From a virus (lineage: Duplodnaviria > Heunggongvirae > Uroviricota > Caudoviricetes), in the IMG/VR virus record IMGVR_UViG_2648501392_000012: a stretch of 24,753 nucleotides of DNA, one strand, 5' to 3'. Below the pieces are notes generated by a model. That model searched no databases, was not told the origin of the DNA, and saw only the letters and a list, made by a program, of their open reading frames with translations. The position numbers were made by a program, and so were the translations under genes. This document shows, in pieces, positions 2,599 to 23,514 of the stretch (the stretch's first letter is position 1; each line of letters starts with the position of its first letter).

Positions 2599-3648
2599 GT
2601 GCGGGTATTACTTAGACCTGTTCTGGTGCCTGAGCTTGGGCTGGTGGTCCTTAAGCCGGGCCGTGAATCCATACAGATATTTCATAATCCTCGAGTGCTG
2701 GTGGAACCGGAACCAAAAAGCATGCGTAATCTGCCATCCGGAGTCGTTCCTGCCGTTCGCCAGCCGCTGGCGGAAGACAAAACATTGCTGCCGTTTTTTA
2801 GTAACGAACGGGTGATTCGTGCTGCTGGCGGCGTTGGCGCATTGTCCGACTGGCTATTACGTCATGTTACATCCTGCCAGTGGCCTAATGGCGATTACCA
2901 TCACACTGAAACAGTCATTCACCGTTATGGTACCGGCGCAATGGTGTTGTGCTGGCACTGCGACAACCAACTGCGTGACCAGACATCGGAATCACTGGAG
3001 CTGCTTGCTCAACAAAATCTGACAGCATGGGTGATTGACGTCATCCGTCACGCAATAAGCGGTACGCAGGAGCGGGAATTATCTTTGGCTGAATTATCCT
3101 GGTGGGCGGTCTGCAATCAGGTGGTGGATGCACTACCTGAGGCTGTATCGCGTCGTTCGCTGGGATTACCAGCGGAAAAAATCTGCTCGGTGTACCGCGA
3201 AAGCGACATCGTACCGGGAGAGCAGACCGCCACCAGCATATTGAAACAACGCACAAAAAATCTTGCACCGTTGCCTTACGCCCACCAGCAACAAAAATCA
3301 CCACAGGAAAAGACGGTGGTAAGCATCACCGTTGATCCAGAGTCTCCGGAATCTTTCATGAAGCTGCCTAAACGTCGCCGCTGGGTTAAGGAGAAATACA
3401 CACGTTGGGTTAAGACACAGCCGTGTGCTTGCTGCGGTATGCCAGCCGACGATCCGCATCATCTGATTGGTCACGGGCAGGGCGGAATGGGAACAAAAGC
3501 ACATGATCTCTTTGTGTTGCCTTTGTGCAGAAAGCATCACAACGAGCTGCATACGGATACAGTGGCATTTGAAGATAAGTATGGCTCCCAACTGGAGCTG
3601 ATATTTCGTTTTATCGATCGCGCGCTGGCAATTGGCGTACTGGCGTAA
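2599..3648 (+). CDS. ydfU: DUF968-family prophage protein (YdfU-like), HNH-like Cys/His C-terminal domain
   Basis: Long ORF with C-terminal CACCGMPADDPHHLIGHGQGGMGTKAHDLFVLPLCRKHHNELH motif; start placed at GTG 2599 (GGAGG 4 nt upstream, 349 aa) rather than the upstream GTG 2560 used by the ORF track. Confidence 0.75.
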   Translation: MRVLLRPVLVPELGLVVLKPGRESIQIFHNPRVLVEPEPKSMRNLPSGVVPAVRQPLAEDKTLLPFFSNERVIRAAGGVGALSDWLLRHVTSCQWPNGDYHHTETVIHRYGTGAMVLCWHCDNQLRDQTSESLELLAQQNLTAWVIDVIRHAISGTQERELSLAELSWWAVCNQVVDALPEAVSRRSLGLPAEKICSVYRESDIVPGEQTATSILKQRTKNLAPLPYAHQQQKSPQEKTVVSITVDPESPESFMKLPKRRRWVKEKYTRWVKTQPCACCGMPADDPHHLIGHGQGGMGTKAHDLFVLPLCRKHHNELHTDTVAFEDKYGSQLELIFRFIDRALAIGVLA

Positions 3649-10947: not shown

Positions 10948-11475
10948 ATGTCAAATGTGAGCGGGATCGGTGATGCTTATTACTGGAGTGTTTTTAAAAT
11001 CGCTGAGGCCTTTGGGCTTCACCGGGACACAGTAAAAAAACGGCTCCTCGCGGCCAACACTCCTGTGGCTGCGACTATCAGGGGGAACCCCGTTTACGCC
11101 CTGCAGCATGTCGGGCCAGCCCTGTTTAGTGTGAAGCATGAGGCAGCAGACTCTGTTCATGATCCATCCCGTATGGAGCCGAAAGAGAGAAAGGACTGGT
11201 ACCAATCTGAAAATGAAAGGATCAAGCTGGAAAAGGAGCAGCGAAAACTCATCCCCGTTGATGAAGTAGTCATCGTCTATTCGTCCATGAGAAAGGCTGT
11301 CGTCCAGGTTCTGGAGACAATTCCGGATGTTCTTGAACGCGATTGCGCCCTGACTCCTCAGGCCGTCGGCGTTGTGCAGCAGGCCATTGATGACCTGCGA
11401 TACACTCTTCAGGAAAAATCCTACGAGGCTTGTGCTGCTGAATTAATTCCTGATGAGGAAGGAGAGAGTCTCTAG
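10948..11475 (+). CDS. Terminase small subunit (Nu1-like DNA-packaging protein)
   Basis: About 175-aa acidic protein immediately upstream of the gpA-type large terminase; N-terminal HTH-like region (YWSVFKIAEAFGLHRDTVKKRL); GGAG 7 nt before ATG 10948. Confidence 0.65.
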   Translation: MSNVSGIGDAYYWSVFKIAEAFGLHRDTVKKRLLAANTPVAATIRGNPVYALQHVGPALFSVKHEAADSVHDPSRMEPKERKDWYQSENERIKLEKEQRKLIPVDEVVIVYSSMRKAVVQVLETIPDVLERDCALTPQAVGVVQQAIDDLRYTLQEKSYEACAAELIPDEEGESL

Positions 11476-13792: not shown

Positions 13793-15300
13793 TGGCAATT
13801 CTTGATGATGTGATTGGCGTTTTTTCACCAGGATGGAAAGCAGCAAGGCTGCGTTCCCGTGCGGTGATCCAGGCTTATGAGGCCGTAAAAACGACGCGGA
13901 CACACAAAGCCCGACGGGAGAACCGAACTGCCGACCAGTTAAGCCAGTACGGGGCCGTGTCGTTACGTGAGCAGGCCCGTTACCTTGATAACAACCACGA
14001 TCTGGTTATTGGTGTATTTGACAAGCTGGAAGAACGGGTGGTGGGGAAAAACGGGATTATTGTCGAGCCACATCCGGTATTACGCAATGGGGCCATTGCC
14101 CGTGACCTGGCTGCGGAGATTCGCACCCGATGGAGTGAATGGTCTGTCAGCCCGGAAGTCACCGGGCAGTTTACCCGTCCGATGCTGGAACGTCTGATGC
14201 TTCGTACCTGGCTGCGCGATGGTGAGGTGTTTGCCCAGATGGTTTCCGGGCGCATAAACAGCCTGGCGCCTTCTGCCGGTGTTCATTTCTGGCTGGAGGC
14301 GCTCGAGCCGGACTTTATTCCCATGACCAGTGATGAGAGCAACAGGCTGAATCAGGGCGTGTTTGTTGATGACTGGGGGCGTCCCGAAAAATATCTGGTG
14401 TATAAAAGCCGTCCCGTATCCGGACGGCAGATGGAAACCAAAGAAGTGGATGCAGAGCGAATGCTGCATCTTAAATTTGTTCGCCGTCTGCACCAGATGC
14501 GCGGGACGTCTTTGTTGTCCGGTGTGCTGATCCGCCTCAGTGCCCTGAAAGAATATGAAGATTCTGAGCTGACTGCAGCAAGGATCGCCGCTGCTCTGGG
14601 GATGTACATCCGGAAAGGCGACGGGCAGAGCTATGAACCGGATGGTAATGGCAGAAAGGAGAATGAACGTGAGCTTACCATTCAGCCGGGCATTATTTAC
14701 GACGATCTGAAACCCGGCGAAGAAATCGGAATGGTGAAGTCGGATCGCCCCAATCCTAACCTTGAAACTTTTCGTAATGGTCAGTTGCGTGCCGTGGCGG
14801 CGGGCAGTCGTCTGAGTTTTTCCAGTACAGCGCGCAACTATAACGGCACTTACAGCGCCCAGCGTCAGGAGCTGGTTGAATCCACTGATGGCTACCTGAT
14901 CCTGCAGGACTGGTTTATTGGTGCCGTCACCCGCCCGATGTATCGTGCATGGCTGAAACAGGCTGTGGCATCCGGTGTTATCAGGCTACCCCGCGATCTT
15001 GACCGTTCTTCACTGTATACCGCGGTGTATTCCGGACCAGTGATGCCGTGGATTGACCCTGTTAAGGAGGCTGAGGCCTGGAAAATCCAGATTCGTGGTG
15101 GAGCGGCGACAGAATCAGACTGGGTACGTGCTGGTGGTCGTAATCCGGATGATGTCAAACGTCGGCGCAAGGCCGAAATTGATGAAAACCGCAAGCTGGA
15201 TCTGGTATTTGATACCGATCCGGCCAGTGATAAAGGAGGCAGTAGTGCCGCAACGAAACGACAGGAGCCGCAGCACACCGACGACCAGTCCGAAGAATAA
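13792..15300 (+). CDS. Portal protein, lambda gpB family
   Basis: 502-aa ORF from ATG 13792, overlapping the gpW stop (TGATG); size and position match lambda portal. Confidence 0.85.
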   Translation: MAILDDVIGVFSPGWKAARLRSRAVIQAYEAVKTTRTHKARRENRTADQLSQYGAVSLREQARYLDNNHDLVIGVFDKLEERVVGKNGIIVEPHPVLRNGAIARDLAAEIRTRWSEWSVSPEVTGQFTRPMLERLMLRTWLRDGEVFAQMVSGRINSLAPSAGVHFWLEALEPDFIPMTSDESNRLNQGVFVDDWGRPEKYLVYKSRPVSGRQMETKEVDAERMLHLKFVRRLHQMRGTSLLSGVLIRLSALKEYEDSELTAARIAAALGMYIRKGDGQSYEPDGNGRKENERELTIQPGIIYDDLKPGEEIGMVKSDRPNPNLETFRNGQLRAVAAGSRLSFSSTARNYNGTYSAQRQELVESTDGYLILQDWFIGAVTRPMYRAWLKQAVASGVIRLPRDLDRSSLYTAVYSGPVMPWIDPVKEAEAWKIQIRGGAATESDWVRAGGRNPDDVKRRRKAEIDENRKLDLVFDTDPASDKGGSSAATKRQEPQHTDDQSEE

Positions 15301-15313
15301 TTCCTGGTTCAGG

Positions 15314-17272
15314 ATGCAGGCTGGTCACCAGAGTGACGCGGATATTTATATTTATGACGAGATTGGTTTCTGGGGTGTTACAGCGAAGCAGTTTATCAGT
15401 GATCTGAATGCACTGGGCGATATCACCCACATTAATCTCCATATTAATTCACCGGGTGGCGATGTCTTTGAAGGCATCGCCATTTTTAATGCGCTGAAAA
15501 CACATGGTGCGTCCATTACCGTTTATGTCGACGGTGTGGCGGCGTCAATGGCGTCGGTCATTGCGATGGTAGGAAACCCGGTCATTATGCCGGAAAACAC
15601 CTTCATGATGATTCATAAACCATTTGGCTTTACGGGCGGTGATGCGGAGGACATGCGCACCTATGCCGACCTGCTCGATAAAGTTGAGGCGGTTCTGTTA
15701 CCCGCTTATGCACAGAAAACCGGGAAAACCACCGATGAAATTGCTGCCATGCTGGCGGATGAGACCTGGATGTCCGGTGCCGAATGTCTGGCACAGGGAT
15801 TTGCTGATCAGGTGACACCAGCCGTTAAGGCAATGGCATGTATTCAGTCAAAACGTACAGAGGAATTTAAAAAGATGCCGGAATCCATTCGAAATATGAT
15901 TACTCCGCCACGCAACAGTGCTCCACGCGTACAGGATGATGGACCTGCAGCCTCCCGGACGCCAGTGCAGGCAGCAGCACCCGTGGTGGATGAAAACAGC
16001 ATCCGTGCGCAGGTCTTGGCAGAGCAAAAAGCGCGTGTAAACGGTATTAATGATCTGTTTGCCATGTTTGGCGGGCGTTATCAGTCGTTGCAGACTCAGT
16101 GTCTTGCCGATCCTGAATGTTCGCTGGAGCAGGCCCGCGAAAAGCTGTTGAACGAGATGGGGCGCGAGTCCACGCCATCCAATAAAAATACCCCGGCTCA
16201 TATTTATGCCGGTAACGGTAATTTTGTGGGGGACGGGATCCGCCAGGCGCTGATGGCGCGCGCCGGGTTTGAAAAAACTGAACGTGATAATGTCTACAAC
16301 GGGATGACCCTGCGTGAATATGCCCGTATGTCACTGACTGAACGTGGTATTGGTGTTTCCAGTTATAACCCGATGCAGATGGTCGGTGCGGCGTTCACAC
16401 ACAGTACGTCTGACTTCGGTAATATTCTGCTGGATGTTGCGAACAAAGCCATTCTGCAGGGCTGGGAAGATGCCCCTGAAACCTATGAACAGTGGACGCG
16501 GAAAGGTCAGTTGTCTGATTTTAAAATTGCCCATCGTGTGGGTATGGGGGGCTTCAGTGCTCTGCGTCAGGTGCGTGAAGGGGCAGAATATAAATACGTC
16601 ACCACCGGAGATAAACAGGCCACTATTGCACTGGCGACCTATGGCGAGCTGTTCAGTATCACCCGTCAGGCCATTATCAATGATGATCTGAATATGCTGA
16701 CCGATGTCCCGATGAAGCTGGGCCGTGCGGCGAAATCCACTATTGCCGATCTGATTTATGCCATTCTGACGTCTAACCCGAAAATCTCCACAGATAATGT
16801 AAGTCTGTTCGATAAAGCGAAACATGCAAACGTACTGGAGAGCGCGGCAATGGACGTGGCATCGCTGGATAAAGCCCGCCAGTTGATGCGCGTTCAGAAA
16901 GAGGGTGAGCGTCATCTGAATATTCGTCCTGCGTTCGTACTGGTACCGACGGCGATGGAGTCTGTTGCTAACCAGGTCATTCGCTCCTCAAGTGTCAAGG
17001 GGGCTGACATTAACGCCGGTATTATTAACCCGGTGAAAGATTTTGCGACCGTTATTGCAGAGCCTCGTCTTGATGATAACAGCCAGACCACCTTCTACCT
17101 GGCTGCGTCCAAAGGCTCCGATACGATTGAAGTGGCTTATCTCAACGGTGTGGATACGCCATATATTGATCAGATGGAGGGCTTCAGTGTGGATGGCGTG
17201 ACAACGAAAGTGCGTATTGACGCTGGTGTTGCGCCAGTTGATCACCGCGGCCTGGTGAAATGTACGGCGTAA
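15314..17272 (+). CDS. Tripartite capsid gene: ClpP/S49-type prohead protease, scaffold-like linker and HK97-fold major capsid protein in one ORF
   Basis: N-terminal ...IYIYDEIGFWGVTAKQFISDLNAL...INSPGGDVFEGIAIFNALK...VDGVAASMASVIAMVG (ClpP-like); central Ala/Gln-rich linker; C-terminal ~350 aa capsid-like; start placed at the in-frame ATG just after the portal stop. Confidence 0.8.
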   Translation: MQAGHQSDADIYIYDEIGFWGVTAKQFISDLNALGDITHINLHINSPGGDVFEGIAIFNALKTHGASITVYVDGVAASMASVIAMVGNPVIMPENTFMMIHKPFGFTGGDAEDMRTYADLLDKVEAVLLPAYAQKTGKTTDEIAAMLADETWMSGAECLAQGFADQVTPAVKAMACIQSKRTEEFKKMPESIRNMITPPRNSAPRVQDDGPAASRTPVQAAAPVVDENSIRAQVLAEQKARVNGINDLFAMFGGRYQSLQTQCLADPECSLEQAREKLLNEMGRESTPSNKNTPAHIYAGNGNFVGDGIRQALMARAGFEKTERDNVYNGMTLREYARMSLTERGIGVSSYNPMQMVGAAFTHSTSDFGNILLDVANKAILQGWEDAPETYEQWTRKGQLSDFKIAHRVGMGGFSALRQVREGAEYKYVTTGDKQATIALATYGELFSITRQAIINDDLNMLTDVPMKLGRAAKSTIADLIYAILTSNPKISTDNVSLFDKAKHANVLESAAMDVASLDKARQLMRVQKEGERHLNIRPAFVLVPTAMESVANQVIRSSSVKGADINAGIINPVKDFATVIAEPRLDDNSQTTFYLAASKGSDTIEVAYLNGVDTPYIDQMEGFSVDGVTTKVRIDAGVAPVDHRGLVKCTA

Positions 17273-17682: not shown

Positions 17683-17950
17683 TCCCTTTTCCCGGCTGGC
17701 AGCGCGTATGGATGCGATCACGGTCAGAAAGATGGGAAAGACAGCCTCGATTAATGATGTCGATATGACTGTGATCCCGGGAGAAACACTGGCAGAGCTG
17801 AATGCTCTGTCCGGACCTGCGGTCTCTCTGGTGGTGTTTTCTTCGGGATACCGCCCACGGCGCGGGGATCGCGTTGTTTATGACGGACAACAATGGACGG
17901 TCACACGGCATGAACGTTTTAACGGTAAGCCAATGATCTTTATTGAGTAA
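17675..17950 (+). CDS. Head-tail connector, lambda gpFII-like (91 aa)
   Basis: Shares the ...RRGD...W.V.R... pattern with the lambda FII C-terminal region (PRRGDRVVYDGQQWTVTRHE vs LRRGDTLTIGEENFWVDRV); overlaps neighbours by 8 and 1 nt. Confidence 0.55.
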   Translation: MSDPFSRLAARMDAITVRKMGKTASINDVDMTVIPGETLAELNALSGPAVSLVVFSSGYRPRRGDRVVYDGQQWTVTRHERFNGKPMIFIE

Positions 17951-17961
17951 TGAGGTGTGGG

Positions 17962-18540
17962 ATGAAGGGGCTTGAGAATGCCATCCGCAATCTGAACAGC
18001 CTTGATACCCGTATGGTGCCACAGGCCAGCGCATGGGCGATAAACCGTGTGGCACAGAAAGCGGTCTCGGTTGCCACCCGGCAGGTTGCCGGGAATACCG
18101 TTGCGGGAGATAACCAGGTGAAAGGGATCCCCCTGAAACTGGTACGTCAGCGTGTCCGGGTGTTTAAAGCCAGTCCGTCAGGAAAAATGACGGCCAGGAT
18201 CCGCGTTAACCGGGGCAATCTGCCCGCCATTAAGCTGGGGACAGCCCGGGTCAGACTGGCCCGGCGTGGTGGAAAACTGCAGTACCGTGGCAGTGTGCTG
18301 AAGGTGGGTAAATATCTTTTCCGGGATGCGTTTATTCAGCAACTGGCGAATGGTCGCTGGCATGTGATGCGACGTATTGATGGCAAAAATCGTTACCCCA
18401 TTGATGTGGTGAAAATCCCGCTGTCCGGACCGCTGACACAGGCATTTGAAGATGCCCGCGACCACATCATTGCTGCGGAAATGCCGAAACAGCTGGGGTA
18501 TGCACTGAAACAACAACTGAGGTTATGGCTGACCCGATGA
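17962..18540 (+). CDS. Minor tail protein Z (lambda gpZ-like)
   Basis: MKGLENAIRNLN... and C-terminal ...ANGRWHVMRRIDGKNRYPIDVVKIPLSGPL...LGYALKQQLR closely parallel lambda Z. Confidence 0.8.
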   Translation: MKGLENAIRNLNSLDTRMVPQASAWAINRVAQKAVSVATRQVAGNTVAGDNQVKGIPLKLVRQRVRVFKASPSGKMTARIRVNRGNLPAIKLGTARVRLARRGGKLQYRGSVLKVGKYLFRDAFIQQLANGRWHVMRRIDGKNRYPIDVVKIPLSGPLTQAFEDARDHIIAAEMPKQLGYALKQQLRLWLTR

Positions 18541-18938
18541 ACCGACATACACAAATCCGCCAGGTCGTACTGGCACGCCTTCGGGAACAGTGTGGAGACA
18601 GCGCCACGTTTTTTGACGGGCTTCCGGCATTTGTTGATGCGCAGGAACTGCCTGCCGTGGCGGTGTGGCTGAGTGATGCTCAGTACACCGGAAAAATGAC
18701 GGATGAAGATGACTGGCAGGCTGTTCTGCATATTGCTGTCTTCATCCGGGCACAGGCACCGGATTCAGAGCTGGATATGTGGATGGAGAGCACCATTTTC
18801 CCGGCCCTGAATGATGTACCAGCACTTTCCGGACTCATCGACACCCTGATCCCACTCGGTTTTAACTATCAACGTGATAATGAGATGGCCACCTGGGCGA
18901 TGGCGGAAATCACGTACCAGATCACGTACACGAATTAA
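18537..18938 (+). CDS. Tail terminator protein U (lambda gpU-like)
   Basis: ...ATFFDGLPAFVDAQELPAVAVWLSDAQYTGK...WQAVLHIAVFIRAQAPDSELDMWMESTIFPALNDVPALSGLI... parallels lambda U; start ATG 18537 overlaps the Z stop (alternative ATG 18525). Confidence 0.85.
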   Translation: MNRHTQIRQVVLARLREQCGDSATFFDGLPAFVDAQELPAVAVWLSDAQYTGKMTDEDDWQAVLHIAVFIRAQAPDSELDMWMESTIFPALNDVPALSGLIDTLIPLGFNYQRDNEMATWAMAEITYQITYTN

Positions 18939-18948
18939 GGAGGTGGTA

Positions 18949-19692
18949 ATGACCACACCAAATCCACTGGCAAAAACGAAAGGTGCGGGAACGACGTTCT
19001 GGATGTATACCGGCAAGGGCGATGCGTTTGTGAACCCTTTATCGGACACTGACTGGCTGCGTCTTGCGATGGTGAAGGATCTGCAACCTGGCGAAATGAC
19101 CGCTGATGCAGAAGATGACACTTATCTCGATGATGAAGATGCAGACTGGAAAACGACAACCCAGGGGCAGAAATCAGTCGGTGATACTTCGGCGACGCTG
19201 GCCTGGCGTCCGGGGGACAGCGGGCAGAAAAAACTGGTTCAGTTGTTCGACTCCGGTGAAGTCTGCGCGTTTCGTATCAAATATCCCAACGGTACTGTTG
19301 ATGTTTTCCGTGGCTGGCTGAGTTCACTGGGTAAAACCATTGCTTCAAAAGACGTGATGACCCGCACAGTGAAAATCAGCGGTGTGGGGCGTCCGTATCT
19401 GGCAGAGGAAGGCACTGAAACCGTGGGCGTTACCGGGCTGACGGTGGCACCGGCATCTGCCAGTGTAAAAGTGGGAGCAACCACCACGCTGACCTTTACA
19501 GTAAAACCTGACGGAGCCAGTGACAAAGCGATCAGTGTGCATTCGACAGATCCACAGACTGCCACGGTGACCCTGAACGGGCTTGTGGCCACGGTGAAAG
19601 GCGTGAAGCAGGGCAGTGTCAGCATTGTGGGCATGACTTCTGACGGCGATTTTGTGGCAGTGGCTACGGTGGCTGTCAGCGCCGCAGGTTAA
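18949..19692 (+). CDS. Major tail protein V (lambda gpV-like) with C-terminal Ig-like (Big_2) domain
   Basis: MTTPNPLAKTKGAGTTFWMYTGKGDAFVNPLSDTDWLRLAMVKDLQPGEMTA... nearly colinear with lambda V; AAGGAGG ribosome-binding site. Confidence 0.9.
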   Translation: MTTPNPLAKTKGAGTTFWMYTGKGDAFVNPLSDTDWLRLAMVKDLQPGEMTADAEDDTYLDDEDADWKTTTQGQKSVGDTSATLAWRPGDSGQKKLVQLFDSGEVCAFRIKYPNGTVDVFRGWLSSLGKTIASKDVMTRTVKISGVGRPYLAEEGTETVGVTGLTVAPASASVKVGATTTLTFTVKPDGASDKAISVHSTDPQTATVTLNGLVATVKGVKQGSVSIVGMTSDGDFVAVATVAVSAAG

Positions 19693-19711
19693 CAGGACGA
19701 TACTCATCATT

Positions 19712-19736
19712 TGCCCCGGTTATCCGGGGCTTTTTT
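19712..19736 (+). terminator. Rho-independent terminator after the major tail gene
   Basis: GCCCCGG-TTAT-CCGGGGC followed by TTTTTTG. Confidence 0.55.
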
Positions 19737-19749
19737 GCAGGTGGAGAAC

Positions 19750-20139
19750 ATGATGTTTCTGAAACAGGGCACGTTTAATTATGAAAAGCAGTCCGTGGTG
19801 CTCAGTGAGCTGTCCGGGCTGCAGAGAATTGAATATCTGGCGTTTGTTCAGCAGCGAACGGCAAAGTTTGATGCCGAAGAGGGAGAACTGCCGGAGGCTG
19901 AACGACAGATTGCTTTTCTGCGGATGGGGATGGATATCAATGCCTGGCTGGTTTCCCGCTCACTGTGGAATGCGGAACAGTCTCAGGATGTTGAGACGCT
20001 TTGCGCATCCGTTATTACAACATGGTCGTATGATGCCCTGGGAACGGGGGCGGAGATGGTTCTGTCGCTGAGCGGTATGGGAGCCATTGAGAATGCCGGG
20101 GATTTGGAGCATGAGGTGCTGACGCCGGAAAAGTCCTGA
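19750..20139 (+). CDS. Tail assembly chaperone G (lambda gpG-like)
   Basis: MMFLKQGTFNYEKQSVVLSELSGLQRIEYLAF... parallels lambda G (MFLKTESFEHNGVTVTLSELSALQRIEHLAL...). Confidence 0.85.
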   Translation: MMFLKQGTFNYEKQSVVLSELSGLQRIEYLAFVQQRTAKFDAEEGELPEAERQIAFLRMGMDINAWLVSRSLWNAEQSQDVETLCASVITTWSYDALGTGAEMVLSLSGMGAIENAGDLEHEVLTPEKS

Positions 20140-20477
20140 CGCGGGAAATGCAGTTTGTCATGCGGCTTGCCCGGGAGTTCAGGCGGGCAGACTGGCGGCG
20201 GATGCTGTCGGAAATGTCGGCCACTGAGCTTGGTGAGTGGGGCGATTATTTCCGGATGCAGAGCTTCAGTGATGTGTGGATGGATGCGCAGTTTGCCTCG
20301 CTGAAGGCATTGATCGTGAGAATGGTGTCCGGCAGCAGTGATGCTGCGGTGGCTGATTTCAGCCTTTTACCGGAAGAGAACGGGATACCGGAGCGAACGG
20401 ACGAAGAACTGATGCATCTTGGGGAAGGTATTTCCGGAGGTGTGCGTTATGGACCAGATAGCCAACCTGGTCATTGA
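20130..20477 (+). CDS. T segment of the G-T tail assembly chaperone, probably expressed only as a G-T fusion via -1 ribosomal frameshift near the end of G
   Basis: The -1 frame is open from 20115 and overlaps the last 8 codons of G; candidate slippery heptamer GGAAAAG at 20127..20133; position matches the lambda G/GT arrangement. Confidence 0.6.
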   Translation, partial: KVLTREMQFVMRLAREFRRADWRRMLSEMSATELGEWGDYFRMQSFSDVWMDAQFASLKALIVRMVSGSSDAAVADFSLLPEENGIPERTDEELMHLGEGISGGVRYGPDSQPGH

Positions 20478-23400
20478 TTTGGGGATTGATGCGGCAGAGT
20501 TTAAAAATGAAATTCCCCGTATCAAAAACCTTCTGAATCGTGCAGCCAGCGATGCAGAACGGTCTTCTGCCCGTATGCAGCGTTTTATGGAGCGTCAGAC
20601 TCAGGCCGCCCGGCAGACAACGCAGGCGGCTTCTTCGGCTGCAACAGCCGCATCCGTCCATGCGCAGACGGTGGAGAAGAACGCACAGGCTCATGAACGC
20701 ATGGCCCGCGAGGTGGAGAAAACCCGCCAGCGCATGGAGGCGCTGAGCCAGAAAATGCGCGAGGAACAGGCGCAGGCCATGGCTCTGGCGGAGGCTCAGG
20801 ATAAAGCGGCTGCTGCGTTTTATCGTCAGATTGACAGTGTGAAACAGGCCAGTGCGGGGCTGCAGGAATTACAGCGTATTCAGCAGCAGATCCGACAGGC
20901 CAGAAACAGTGGCGGGATTGGTCAGCAGGATTATCTGGCGCTGATTTCTGAGGTTACTGCGAAAACCCGTGTTCTTACACAGGCTGAGGAAGAGGCTACC
21001 CGACAGAAAGTGGCGTTTATCCGTCAGCTTAAAGAGCAGGCAACCCGCCAGAATCTTTCATCTTCTGAGTTGCTTCGTGCCAAGGCAGCCCAGCTGGGGG
21101 TAAGCAGTGCTGCAGAAGTGTATATCCGCAAAATGGAGCAGGCAGGAAAAGCCACGCATTCGCTGGGTCTGAAAAGTGCAGCAGCCCGCCAGGAGATAGG
21201 CGTTCTGATAGGTGAACTGGCCCGCGGCAATTTAGGGGCGCTGAGGGGATCCGGGATAACGCTGGCTAACCGTGCCGGATGGATAGACACACTGATGTCA
21301 CCGAAAGGCATGATGCTTGGCGGGGTTATTGGCGGTATTGCCGCGGCCGTCTATGGTCTGGGTAAAGCCTGGTATGACGGTCAGAAGGAGGGGGAAGAAT
21401 TTAACCGCCAGTTGTCGCTGACGGGGCATTATGCCGGAGTCACTGCCGGGCAGCTGTGGACGCTCAGTCGTGCTATTTCCGGGAATGGTATCACGCAACA
21501 TGCTGCAGCCGGTGCGCTGGCTCATGTGGTGGGGAGTGGTGCATTTCGTGGAAACGATATCGGTATGGTGGCGAGAGCTGCCGCACAGATGGAGCGATCG
21601 GTTAGCCAGTCGGTCAGCGATACCATAAATCAGTTTAAGCGGCTGAAGGATGATCCTGTAAATGCCGCGAAGGCTCTGGACAATGAGCTGCATTTTCTTA
21701 CTGCCACTCAGCTTGAGCAGATACGTGTCCTTGGGGATCAGGGACGGTCCAGTGAGGCTGCACGGATAGCCATGTCTGCACTGGCAGAGGAAACCGGTCG
21801 GCGTACTGCGGATATTGATAATAACCTCAATGCGCTTGGCAGTACGCTGAAGTATCTGTCTGATTTGTGGAGTCGTTTCTGGGATGCGGCCATGAATATT
21901 GGTCGTGAAGACTCGCTGGATGAACAGATTACCGCTTTACAGGAGAAAGTGTCGTGGGCGAAAAGACTCCCCTGGACGGCATCATCTTCTCAGGTTGAAT
22001 ACGATCAGCAGCGTCTTAACGATCTTCAGGAGAAAAAACGCCAGAAGGATTTGCAGGATGCAAAAGAGCAGGCAGAGCGGAATTATCAGGAGCAACAGAA
22101 ACGACGTAATGCTGAAAATGCTGCACTGAACCGGATGAATGAAACGGAAGCAGCACGACATCAGCGTGAAATTGCGCGTATTAATGCCATGCAGTACGCC
22201 GACCAGGCTGTCAGGGATGCGGCGATACAACGTGAAAATGAACGTTACGAGAAAGCCCTGGCATCCGGTAAGAAAAAAACACGCGAAACCCGTAATGATG
22301 AGGCCACCCGGTTATTGCTGCAGTACAGTCAGCAACAGGCACAGGTGGAAGGACAGATTGCTGCTGCAAGACAGTCAGCAGGCATTGCCACTGAAAAGAT
22401 GACAGAAGCGCATAAACAGCTTCTGGCTCTGCAGCAGCGCATCAGCGATCTGGACGGGAAAAAACTGACGGCAGATGAAAAGAGTGTGCTGGCCCGTAAA
22501 GATGAACTGATTCAGGCACTGACGCTGCTGGATGTAAAACAGCAGGAGCTTCAGAAACAGACGGCACTCAACGATCTGAAGAAAAAAACAATTCAGCTGA
22601 CCAGTCAACTGGCTGAAGAAGAGCGCGCTCAGCGTCAGCAACATGACCTGGATATCGCCACGGTGGGTATGGGTGATCAGCAGCGGCAGCGATATCAGGT
22701 ACAACTGAGTCTTCGCCAGAAATACCAGCAACAGCTGGAGCAGTTGAGGCGGGATAGTGAGCAGAAAGGGACATATAACACGGATGACTACAGAAAAGCC
22801 GAGCAGGCGCTGACGGAGAGCCTGAACCGACAACTGAATGAGAGTCGCCGTTACTGGCAACAGCTTGAAGTTGTGCAGGGTAACTGGAAAAACGGAGTCC
22901 TGCGTGCATTTCAGGATTTTACCGTGGATGCAGACAATACGGCAGGAATAGCAGAACAGGTGTTCTCGTCAGCCTTCAGCAACATGAGAAATGGCCTGGC
23001 AACTTTTGTCACTACCGGCAAACTCAACTTCAAATCCTTCACCTCTTCGGTGCTGTCAGATATGGCGAAAATCCTGGCGCAGGCAACCATGATGAAATCG
23101 ATAAAAGGGATTGGCAGTGTACTGGGATTTGATCTCAGCAGCCTTTCCCTGAATGCCAATGGGGGGATTTATCAGTCTGCTGATTTGGGTCGTTACAGTG
23201 GCACGGTGGTTAACCGTCCGACGTTTTTTGCTTTTGCAAAAGGCGCGGGTGTGATGGGGGAAGCTGGACCTGAAGCCATTCTGCCACTGCGTCGTGGTGC
23301 TGACGGTAAGCTGGGGGTTGTGGCGGATATTGGTGGTTCAGGTATGGCGATGTTTGCCCCGCAGTACAACATCGAGATCAATAACGATGGCACGAACGGG

Positions 23401-23514
23401 CAGATAGGTCCGGCTGCCCTGAAGGTGGTTTATGACCTTGGGAAAAAAGCGGCAGCGGACTTTATGCAACAGCAGGCCCGTGATGGTGGTCGGTTAAGTG
23501 GAGCATATCGGTAA
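20449..23514 (+). CDS. Tail tape measure protein H (lambda gpH-like), 1021 aa
   Basis: N-terminal MDQIANLVIDLGIDAAEF and C-terminal ...INNDGTNGQIGPAALKVVYDLGKKAAADFMQQQARDGGRLSGAYR parallel lambda H; long Gln/Ala-rich coiled-coil core; GGAGG ribosome-binding site. Confidence 0.9.
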   Translation: MDQIANLVIDLGIDAAEFKNEIPRIKNLLNRAASDAERSSARMQRFMERQTQAARQTTQAASSAATAASVHAQTVEKNAQAHERMAREVEKTRQRMEALSQKMREEQAQAMALAEAQDKAAAAFYRQIDSVKQASAGLQELQRIQQQIRQARNSGGIGQQDYLALISEVTAKTRVLTQAEEEATRQKVAFIRQLKEQATRQNLSSSELLRAKAAQLGVSSAAEVYIRKMEQAGKATHSLGLKSAAARQEIGVLIGELARGNLGALRGSGITLANRAGWIDTLMSPKGMMLGGVIGGIAAAVYGLGKAWYDGQKEGEEFNRQLSLTGHYAGVTAGQLWTLSRAISGNGITQHAAAGALAHVVGSGAFRGNDIGMVARAAAQMERSVSQSVSDTINQFKRLKDDPVNAAKALDNELHFLTATQLEQIRVLGDQGRSSEAARIAMSALAEETGRRTADIDNNLNALGSTLKYLSDLWSRFWDAAMNIGREDSLDEQITALQEKVSWAKRLPWTASSSQVEYDQQRLNDLQEKKRQKDLQDAKEQAERNYQEQQKRRNAENAALNRMNETEAARHQREIARINAMQYADQAVRDAAIQRENERYEKALASGKKKTRETRNDEATRLLLQYSQQQAQVEGQIAAARQSAGIATEKMTEAHKQLLALQQRISDLDGKKLTADEKSVLARKDELIQALTLLDVKQQELQKQTALNDLKKKTIQLTSQLAEEERAQRQQHDLDIATVGMGDQQRQRYQVQLSLRQKYQQQLEQLRRDSEQKGTYNTDDYRKAEQALTESLNRQLNESRRYWQQLEVVQGNWKNGVLRAFQDFTVDADNTAGIAEQVFSSAFSNMRNGLATFVTTGKLNFKSFTSSVLSDMAKILAQATMMKSIKGIGSVLGFDLSSLSLNANGGIYQSADLGRYSGTVVNRPTFFAFAKGAGVMGEAGPEAILPLRRGADGKLGVVADIGGSGMAMFAPQYNIEINNDGTNGQIGPAALKVVYDLGKKAAADFMQQQARDGGRLSGAYR

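What the first reader, a model, noticed from the sequence alone, without database searches (positions are those of the whole stretch)
20112..20148. G-T programmed -1 frameshift site with a non-canonical slippery heptamer
The T reading frame has no independent ribosome-binding site and is open in the -1 frame across the last 8 codons of G, as in lambda where G-T is made by -1 frameshifting. The only slippery candidate in the overlap is GGAAAAG (20127..20133; zero-frame codons GAA-AAG shifting to GGA-AAA), which deviates from the lambda G GGA AAG motif and from the X XXY YYZ rule at the P-site codon.
Basis: partly seen in the sequence, partly recalled or inferred. Interest (0 to 1): 0.45.

Follow-up and report, generated by a model that had tools for sequence, protein, structure and literature searches.

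The report
Lambda-type G-T tail chaperone frameshift site
This is the ordinary ribosomal frameshift site that lets a lambda-like prophage make a fused G-T tail-assembly protein. Its "odd" slippery sequence GGAAAAG is the commonest form in this phage family and is already annotated as such in phage N15.

Summary
G (19750..20139) and the T frame (-1, open 20115..20477) overlap by 22 nt. G_GAA_AAG (20127..20133) is the only in-frame slip-prone motif in that overlap. Pfam confirms lambda G and T domains.

The site is positionally homologous to lambda's G_GGA_AAG: the spacing to the T motif LARE is the same. Among 27 diverged lineages from many Enterobacterales genera, 21 carry GGAAAAG and only 3 carry lambda's GGGAAAG.

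Heptamer positions 1, 2, 4, 5 and 6 are invariant. Positions 1 and 4 are synonymous third-codon positions of G, so selection acts on the RNA and not on the protein. The T-frame ATG at 20148 is not conserved and has no usable Shine-Dalgarno sequence.

I found no conserved downstream RNA structure. A GAGG lies 10 nt upstream in this clade.

GGAAAAG is already annotated as the -1 slippery sequence in phage N15 and phage LLS, so the kind is known. What is not settled is its efficiency. In vitro work used this same heptamer as the "unfavourable" control. Public annotation of this clade still calls T a free-standing 109-aa ORF.

The parts
19750..20139 (+). Gene G, the tail assembly chaperone (129 aa; alternative ATG at 19753). 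This is the zero frame of the frameshift.
   Evidence: Pfam Phage_TAC_2 E=2e-39. SD-like GGTGGAG lies upstream. PGAP names it gpG.
20113..20118 (+). SD-like GAGGTG. Its GAGG core ends 10 nt before the heptamer, which is dnaX-like spacing. Candidate upstream stimulator (inferred).
   Evidence: GAGG is kept in the clade even where 20117 varies T/C. The same position is GAGG in Gifsy-2, L017, L018 and L016. An SD-like core is present in 10 of 27 lineages against an 11% background. It is not family-wide.
20112..20114 (+). TGA in the -1 (T) frame. This is the upstream limit of the window in which the shift can occur.
20127..20133 (+). Slippery heptamer G_GAA_AAG. tRNA-Glu sits on the P-site codon GAA and tRNA-Lys on the A-site codon AAG; they re-pair to GGA and AAA.
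   Evidence: It is the only slip-prone motif in the overlap. It is homologous to lambda G_GGA_AAG. Positions 1, 2, 4, 5 and 6 are invariant in 27 of 27 lineages. The same heptamer is annotated as the slippery site in N15 and LLS.
20137..20139 (+). G stop codon TGA, one codon after the heptamer. This is the downstream limit of the shift window.
   Evidence: Across the family the stop lies 0, 1 or 5 codons after the heptamer.
20133..20477 (+). T segment, read in the -1 frame after the shift (114 aa plus stop). The predicted G-T fusion is 242 aa.
   Evidence: Pfam Phage_tail_T E=5e-15. The fusion carries both domains.
20148..20150 (+). ATG that databases use as the start of a free-standing 109-aa T. 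Probably not the main route to T.
   Evidence: PGAP and mEp460 annotation use it. There is no spaced SD. The ATG is present only in this clade and in one Edwardsiella lineage; elsewhere the codon is Leu or Arg.
20449..23514 (+). Gene H, the tape measure protein (1021 aa). It is the downstream neighbour that defines the V-G-T-H gene order.
   Evidence: Pfam TMP_2, Tape_meas_lam_C and TMP_4.

Best explanation
Most ribosomes translating G terminate at 20137 and make the 129-aa chaperone G. A small fraction slip back one nucleotide on G_GAA_AAG (20127-20133) and read on through the T frame. The product is a 242-aa G-T fusion with the junction ...LTPEK|VLTREMQF...

By homology with lambda, the G part binds the tape measure H and the T part recruits the major tail protein V.

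In the slip, the A-site tRNA-Lys moves from AAG to AAA, where pairing is fully cognate. The P-site tRNA-Glu moves from GAA to GGA. It keeps the first and third pairs and puts a G.U pair in the middle.

The overlap, the homology and the nucleotide-level conservation are shown here. The two-tRNA re-pairing, the size of the shifted fraction (probably a few percent or less) and a helper role for the GAGG 10 nt upstream are inferred.
For: - Gene order and domains: the order is Z-U-V-G-T-H, with Pfam G and T domains. The fusion carries both domains.
- Homology of the site: the T frame reads GKV and then 10 residues to LARE, in both lambda and this phage.
- Spread: 21 of 27 lineages, with T only 42-66% identical, carry GGAAAAG at this place while the flanks diverge. 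Gifsy-2, whose G is 55% identical, shares an identical 20-nt block around it.
- Synonymous-site conservation: heptamer positions 1 and 4 are third positions of G codons, yet they are invariant at 2.0 bits. Other third positions upstream carry 0.01-0.69 bits.
- Preceding codon: it encodes P, A, L, V or M but always ends in G. Glu is always GAA although GAG makes up 46% of Glu codons in these genes.
- Confinement of the shift: across the family the T frame opens as late as -3 and G stops as early as +8, which confines the shift to the heptamer.
- No alternative start: no start codon lies in the T frame upstream of the heptamer in any lineage.
- Viability: viable phages carry this heptamer, including mEp460, Ayreon, phi458, cdtI, N15 and phi80.
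- Prior annotation: N15 and LLS records annotate it as the slippery site.
- Same re-pairing elsewhere: GAA to GGA re-pairing through G.U has been proposed for the actinophage motif GGGGGAA (PMC10885494).
Against: - No fusion protein has been observed for this clade, and the 242-aa sequence is absent from a 15-billion protein collection.
- In a reconstituted E. coli system, AUG_GAA_AAG gave mainly zero-frame product and was used as the "unfavourable for slippage" control against G_GGA_AAG (PMC6924986).
- The A_AAG tetramer alone gives about 0.15% in vivo without a strong stimulator (PMC4066793).
- I found no conserved downstream structure.
- The SD-like element is present in only about a third of lineages.
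- The same in-frame heptamer occurs in two ordinary genes of the window.
- Two lineages have G_GCA_AAA, where P-site re-pairing is poor.
Confidence: 0.82

Rival explanations
1. T is made on its own from the ATG at 20148, as databases annotate it. Ribosomes terminating at the G stop 8 nt upstream would re-initiate there, and no frameshift would be needed.
For: The ATG is in the T frame 8 nt after the G stop. PGAP and the phage records annotate a 109-aa T, which is found on more than 1000 contigs.
Against: - There is no spaced SD.
- The ATG is absent in 25 of 27 lineages, including the close relatives Gifsy-2 and Fels-1, where the codon is Leu.
- In lambda the function needs G and T joined in one chain (Atkins review PMC5009743).
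- Independent initiation would not explain the invariance of the heptamer at synonymous sites.
Confidence: 0.06
2. The shift is a single-tRNA slip of tRNA-Lys on A_AAG. The P-site codon and the first G of the heptamer play no part in re-pairing.
For: A_AAG is the best tetramer in E. coli (PMC4066793). All family variants keep A_AAR, while the P-site codon varies among GAA, GGA, AAA, CCA and GCA. G_GCA_AAA lineages exist.
Against: Heptamer position 1 is G in 27 of 27 lineages although it is a synonymous site of five different amino acids. This fits a need for the G:C36 pair after the shift, because tRNA-Glu, tRNA-Gly and tRNA-Ala all have C36. Tetramers need a strong stimulator, and none is conserved here.
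Confidence: 0.1
3. The site is a decayed lambda-type heptamer (GGGAAAG mutated to GGAAAAG) in a defective prophage, and it no longer works.
For: The two heptamers differ by one nucleotide. The in vitro data show lower slipperiness.
Against: The same sequence is present in plaque-forming or inducible phages and in 1846 of 5426 complete E. coli genomes. It is the majority state across genera and lies on most branches of the T tree. There is no polymorphism from -9 to +38 among 63 distinct alleles.
Confidence: 0.02

Closest known systems
Phage lambda G / G-T programmed -1 frameshift (Levin, Hendrix and Casjens 1993; as cited in PMC5009743 and PMC3296357)
   Same: The gene order V-G-T-H and the Pfam families are the same. 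The slip site sits at the homologous codon, 13 codons before LARE in T. The A-site codon is AAG, read by tRNA-Lys. The G stop follows a few codons later, and no downstream structure is evident.
   Different: Lambda has G_GGA_AAG, which is canonical, with tRNA-Gly in the P site. Here the motif is G_GAA_AAG with tRNA-Glu in the P site and a central G.U after the shift. The proteins are only about 33-39% identical. Lambda's roughly 4% shift is measured; here the frequency is unknown.
Phage N15 genes 14/15, and phage LLS genes 11/12
   Same: The heptamer GGAAAAG is identical and lies at the homologous position. In N15 it is annotated "slippery sequence for -1 translational frameshift". In LLS it is annotated as a joined CDS with the site named.
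   Different: T is about 44% identical. In those phages the G stop is 5 codons after the heptamer rather than 1, there is no SD-like GAGG upstream, and there is no ATG early in the T frame.
E. coli dnaX -1 frameshift signal
   Same: The A-site codon AAG is read by the single tRNA-Lys. An SD-like element lies about 10 nt upstream of the heptamer (GAGG at 20113-20116).
   Different: dnaX has a canonical A_AAA_AAG plus a strong downstream stem-loop and shifts about half the time. No such stem-loop was found here.
Actinophage tail chaperone motif G_GGG_GAA (PRFect "fivetwo", PMC10885494)
   Same: The same near-cognate re-pairing applies: tRNA-Glu moves from GAA to GGA through a G.U pair.
   Different: There the Glu codon is in the A site. 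Here it is in the P site, and the A site is a fully slippery Lys codon.

Membership tests
Lambda-type tail assembly chaperone G/G-T with -1 frameshift | Two overlapping ORFs lie between the major tail protein gene and the tape measure gene, with the second ORF in the -1 frame. | tested here: met
   V is 18949-19692, G is 19750-20139, the T frame is 20115-20477 and H is 20449-23514.
Lambda-type tail assembly chaperone G/G-T with -1 frameshift | Sequence homology of both parts to lambda G and T. | tested here: met
   Phage_TAC_2 at 2e-39 and Phage_tail_T at 5e-15. The alignment with lambda and Gifsy-2 T has 37 invariant columns.
Lambda-type tail assembly chaperone G/G-T with -1 frameshift | The downstream ORF lacks its own conserved start codon and ribosome-binding site. 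| tested here: met
   The ATG at 20148 has no spaced SD and is absent in 25 of 27 lineages.
Lambda-type tail assembly chaperone G/G-T with -1 frameshift | A slip-prone sequence lies in the overlap and is conserved at the nucleotide level. | tested here: met
   Heptamer positions 1, 2, 4, 5 and 6 are invariant in 27 of 27 lineages, including synonymous sites.
Lambda-type tail assembly chaperone G/G-T with -1 frameshift | A fusion protein is made at a low, fixed ratio and is needed for tail assembly. | not testable with these tools
   This needs an immunoblot, mass spectrometry or genetics. The fusion sequence is not in the public protein collection.
Canonical X_XXY_YYZ tandem-slippage heptamer | The first three bases are identical, so the P-site tRNA re-pairs with a mismatch only at the wobble position. 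| tested here: not met
   The motif is G_GAA. After the shift the P-site codon is GGA, which gives a second-position G.U with the tRNA-Glu anticodon (the same point is made in PMC6924986).
Canonical X_XXY_YYZ tandem-slippage heptamer | The A-site codon re-pairs cognately (YYZ to YYY). | tested here: met
   A_AAG moves to AAA, and both codons are read by the single E. coli tRNA-Lys.
dnaX-type tripartite signal | An upstream SD-like element about 10 nt before the heptamer. | tested here: inconclusive
   GAGG lies at 20113-20116 with a 10-nt spacer. It is conserved in this clade and in some relatives, but in only 10 of 27 lineages.
dnaX-type tripartite signal | A stable stem-loop 5-8 nt downstream of the heptamer. 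| tested here: not met
   The window fold has z = -1.28. The 27 lineages have mean z about 0 for +8..+70. The alifold consensus is empty near the site.

The most novel reading that the evidence does not exclude
G_GAA_AAG, not lambda's G_GGA_AAG, would be the ancestral and prevailing G-T shift site of lambda-like siphophages of Enterobacterales. It would work as a true two-tRNA slip in which the P-site tRNA-Glu tolerates a central G.U pair.

If so, a heptamer class that X_XXY_YYZ-based screens exclude by design, and that in vitro work treats as a non-slippery control, would be a widespread, selected recoding signal in vivo. It might set a lower G-T:G ratio than lambda's, or depend on helper elements such as the upstream GAGG. 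It might also depend on the s2U34 modification shared by both slipping tRNAs.
Probability: 0.45. Interest if true: 0.4.

Novelty: new member of a known kind. Interest (0 to 1): 0.27.

Why it matters
For this window it matters mainly for annotation. The 109-aa "tail assembly protein T" called in thousands of E. coli genomes is most likely the C-terminal half of a 242-aa G-T fusion.

More broadly, the family survey shows that the textbook lambda heptamer is the exception. A heptamer that breaks the X_XXY_YYZ rule at the P site is the rule here, and it is conserved at synonymous sites.

This gives frameshifting researchers a natural, abundant test case for how much P-site mismatch a bacterial -1 signal tolerates. 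It also shows that motif-based genome screens restricted to canonical heptamers miss real sites. None of this is a new mechanism.

Tried and rejected
- Downstream stimulatory structure. The single-sequence fold of 20134-20260 gave z = -1.28. Per-lineage folds of +8..+50, +8..+70 and +8..+100 gave mean z about 0 at +8..+70, with only scattered low values. RNAalifold on 27 lineages found no helix near the site. A GCCAG...CTGGC hairpin seen in N15-like lineages is 70% paired with weak covariation and does not form in this window.
- Transcriptional slippage. I rejected this on established knowledge: a run of four A is too short.
- Other slip sites in the overlap. None exist.
- Upstream start in the T frame. 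None exists in any lineage.
- Literature. Full-text searches for GGAAAAG with frameshift, tail and phage terms found no paper describing this site in G-T genes. Xu et al. 2004 (Mol Cell), which may list it, is not held.
- Viral-contig scan. It returned only near-identical copies (98-100% T identity), useful for within-clade polymorphism but not for diversity.

Full report
**What is there.** The window is a lambdoid E. coli prophage of the mEp460 / cdtI / Ayreon / phi458 type. Seventeen phage records match 19700-20500 at 97.5-99.8% identity, and 1846 of 5426 complete E. coli genomes carry this DNA.

Pfam places the genes in lambda order:
- Z at 17950-18540
- U at 18525-18938
- V with a Big_2 domain at 18949-19692
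- G at 19750-20139 (Phage_TAC_2, 2e-39)
- the T frame (Phage_tail_T, 5e-15)
- the tape measure H at 20449-23514

**Checking the observation.** The G frame ends ...CCG GAA AAG TCC TGA, with the stop at 20137. The -1 frame has a TGA at 20112-20114 and is then open to 20477.

The overlap is 22 nt. In it the only junction that fits a Z_ZZN tetramer is A_AAG, and no X_XXY_YYZ heptamer exists.

The ATG at 20148 has only GGGAA abutting it, while G and H have well-spaced GGAG-type sites.

The heptamer by itself is not remarkable. It occurs 11 times in the window (4.5 expected). It is in the same phase in a DUF968 gene (3306) and a DUF1441 gene (11229), where the -1 frame closes after 9-10 codons.

**Homology with the proven lambda site.** In lambda/434 the T frame reads C-GKV-FDGELSFALK-LARE. 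Here it reads A-GKV-LTREMQFVMR-LARE, with identical spacing. The two heptamers occupy the same codons and differ only at heptamer position 3: GGGAAAG in lambda and GGAAAAG here.

Gifsy-2, whose G is only 55% identical, shares an identical 20-nt block TGACGCCGGAAAAGTCCTGA set in diverged flanks. It has no ATG early in its T frame.

**Family survey.** A scan of one genome per species with a T alignment gave 68 loci. Together with phage records they fall into 27 lineages that differ by 10% or more in the 143 nt downstream. The heptamers at this position are:

| Heptamer | Lineages |
|---|---|
| GGAAAAG | 21 |
| GGGAAAG | 3 |
| GGCAAAA followed by TAG | 2 |
| GGGAAAA followed by TAG | 1 |

- The GGAAAAG lineages come from Escherichia, Salmonella, Citrobacter, Kosakonia, Kluyvera, Atlantibacter, Klebsiella, Enterobacter, Trabulsiella, Yokenella, Sodalis, Providencia, Phytobacter and others, and include N15 and phi80.
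- The GGGAAAG lineages are lambda, an E. albertii prophage and an Edwardsiella prophage.
- Sakai-type Stx phages have A_AAA_AAG and a Vibrio phage has C_CCA_AAA at the same place.

A rough neighbour-joining tree of T, without bootstrap, puts GGAAAAG on most branches and GGGAAAG on two separate ones.

**Evidence that the RNA is under selection.** In an anchored, ungapped comparison of the 27 lineages, heptamer positions 1, 2, 4, 5 and 6 are invariant. Third positions of the upstream G codons carry 0.01-0.69 bits.

- Position 1 is itself a third position. The codon there is CCG, GCG, CTG, TTG, GTG or ATG, which is five different amino acids, always ending in G. G-ending codons make up only 33-55% for those amino acids in the same genes.
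- Treating lineages as independent gives 1e-11. Counting one event per codon type gives about 0.013.
- Glu is always GAA although GAG is 46% of Glu codons. Lys is AAG in 24 of 27 lineages although AAG is 36% of Lys codons.
- The T-frame codons GGA AAA are not translated as such, because the fusion reads E-K from the zero frame. The conservation therefore cannot be protein-level in that frame.
- Across the family the T frame opens as late as -3 and G stops as early as +8, so a positionally conserved shift must lie in the heptamer.
- Within the window's own clade, 63 distinct G-T alleles show no polymorphism from -9 to +38.

**Mechanism.** The A-site tRNA-Lys moves from AAG to AAA. AAG is the codon known to be the most shift-prone in E. 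coli (PMC4066793).

The P-site tRNA-Glu moves from GAA to GGA. The invariant G at position 1 preserves the pair with C36, and the middle pair becomes G.U. tRNA-Gly, tRNA-Glu and tRNA-Ala, which read the P-site codons seen in the family, all have C36 (established knowledge). This fits the invariance of position 1 and argues for a two-tRNA slip rather than a pure tetramer slip.

The same GAA-to-GGA re-pairing has been proposed for the actinophage motif GGGGGAA (PMC10885494).

**Stimulators.**
- No downstream structure is supported.
- A GAGG lies 10 nt upstream in this clade, at 20113-20116. It is retained when the next base varies.
- The same position is GAGG in Gifsy-2 and several other lineages. 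SD-like cores occur in 10 of 27 lineages against an 11% background (p about 5e-4, lineages not independent, acidic tails inflate GA content).
- I treat this as a plausible clade-level helper, not as shown.

**Efficiency.** This is the open point. Peng et al. used AUG_GAA_AAG as the "unfavourable" control against G_GGA_AAG and saw mainly zero-frame product (PMC6924986). A_AAG alone gives about 0.15% in vivo and up to 5.6% with a strong pseudoknot (PMC4066793). Lambda shifts about 4% of the time (PMC3296357). The yield here may be lower than lambda's, but that has not been measured.

**Comparison with what is known.** The N15 record carries a misc_feature "slippery sequence for -1 translational frameshift" on GGAAAAG. 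The phage LLS record names "minus-one programmed translational frameshift site GGAAAAG" with a joined CDS. The kind is therefore known to phage annotators.

For this clade, every record I opened annotates T as a separate ORF from ATG 20148. The 109-aa T is on more than 1000 contigs, while the 242-aa fusion is absent from the protein collection.

Sharma et al. searched only canonical heptamers, so their screen would have missed this cluster. I found no paper in the held library that discusses this heptamer in G-T genes, and Xu et al. 2004 is not held.

**Verdict.** This is a real, ordinary G-T frameshift site and a new member of a known kind. The non-canonical heptamer is the family norm. Interest is modest. 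It rests on the gap between the heptamer's strong natural conservation and its reputation as non-slippery, and on a widespread annotation error.

Noticed in passing
window 19713-19738 (+): A GC-rich hairpin (GCCCCGG TTAT CCGGGGC) followed by TTTTTT lies between V and G. It is annotated as a rho-independent terminator in mEp460, Ayreon and N15 at the same place. It would lower transcription of G-T-H relative to the abundant major tail protein.
   Followed up: partly
window 3306-3312 and 11229-11235 (+): The same heptamer occurs in the same G_GAA_AAG phase inside a DUF968/HNH-like gene and a DUF1441 gene. The -1 frame closes after 9-10 codons. GGAAAAG is also over-represented in the window (11 against 4.5 expected).
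   Followed up: partly
L014, L016, L046, L026, L062 (position 1501 in each): Some lineages place a stop codon directly after the motif: G_GCA_AAA_TAG, G_GGA_AAA_TAG and G_GAA_AAG_TAG. In G_GCA_AAA the P-site tRNA-Ala can hardly re-pair. This suggests a P-site slip of tRNA-Lys with a stop codon waiting in the A site.
   Followed up: no
L015, L018, L019, L021, L029, L074, L075 (heptamer +12..+18 with +39..+45): N15-like lineages can form a 7-bp stem (CGCCAGU / ACUGGCG) starting 4-5 nt after the heptamer. Over all 27 lineages it is 70% paired with weak covariation, and it does not form in the window clade.
   Followed up: partly
L049-L061 (genome-contig hits): Identical lambda-type G-T sequences turn up on short, low-coverage contigs of assemblies labelled Kitasatospora, Oceanobacillus, Neobacillus, Pseudomonas, Shewanella, Leeuwenhoekiella, Enterococcus and others. 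This is most likely lambda DNA contamination of those assemblies.
   Followed up: no
window 15053-17272 (+): A long ORF that PGAP names [quoted passage not shown] in the identical E. coli prophage. The head module is therefore not lambda-like even though the tail module is.
   Followed up: no
window 20148-20477 (+), public annotation: T is annotated as a free-standing 109-aa protein in RefSeq/PGAP and most phage records of this clade (cluster of 1148 members, more than 1000 contigs). No joined G-T CDS exists for it in the protein collection.
   Followed up: yes
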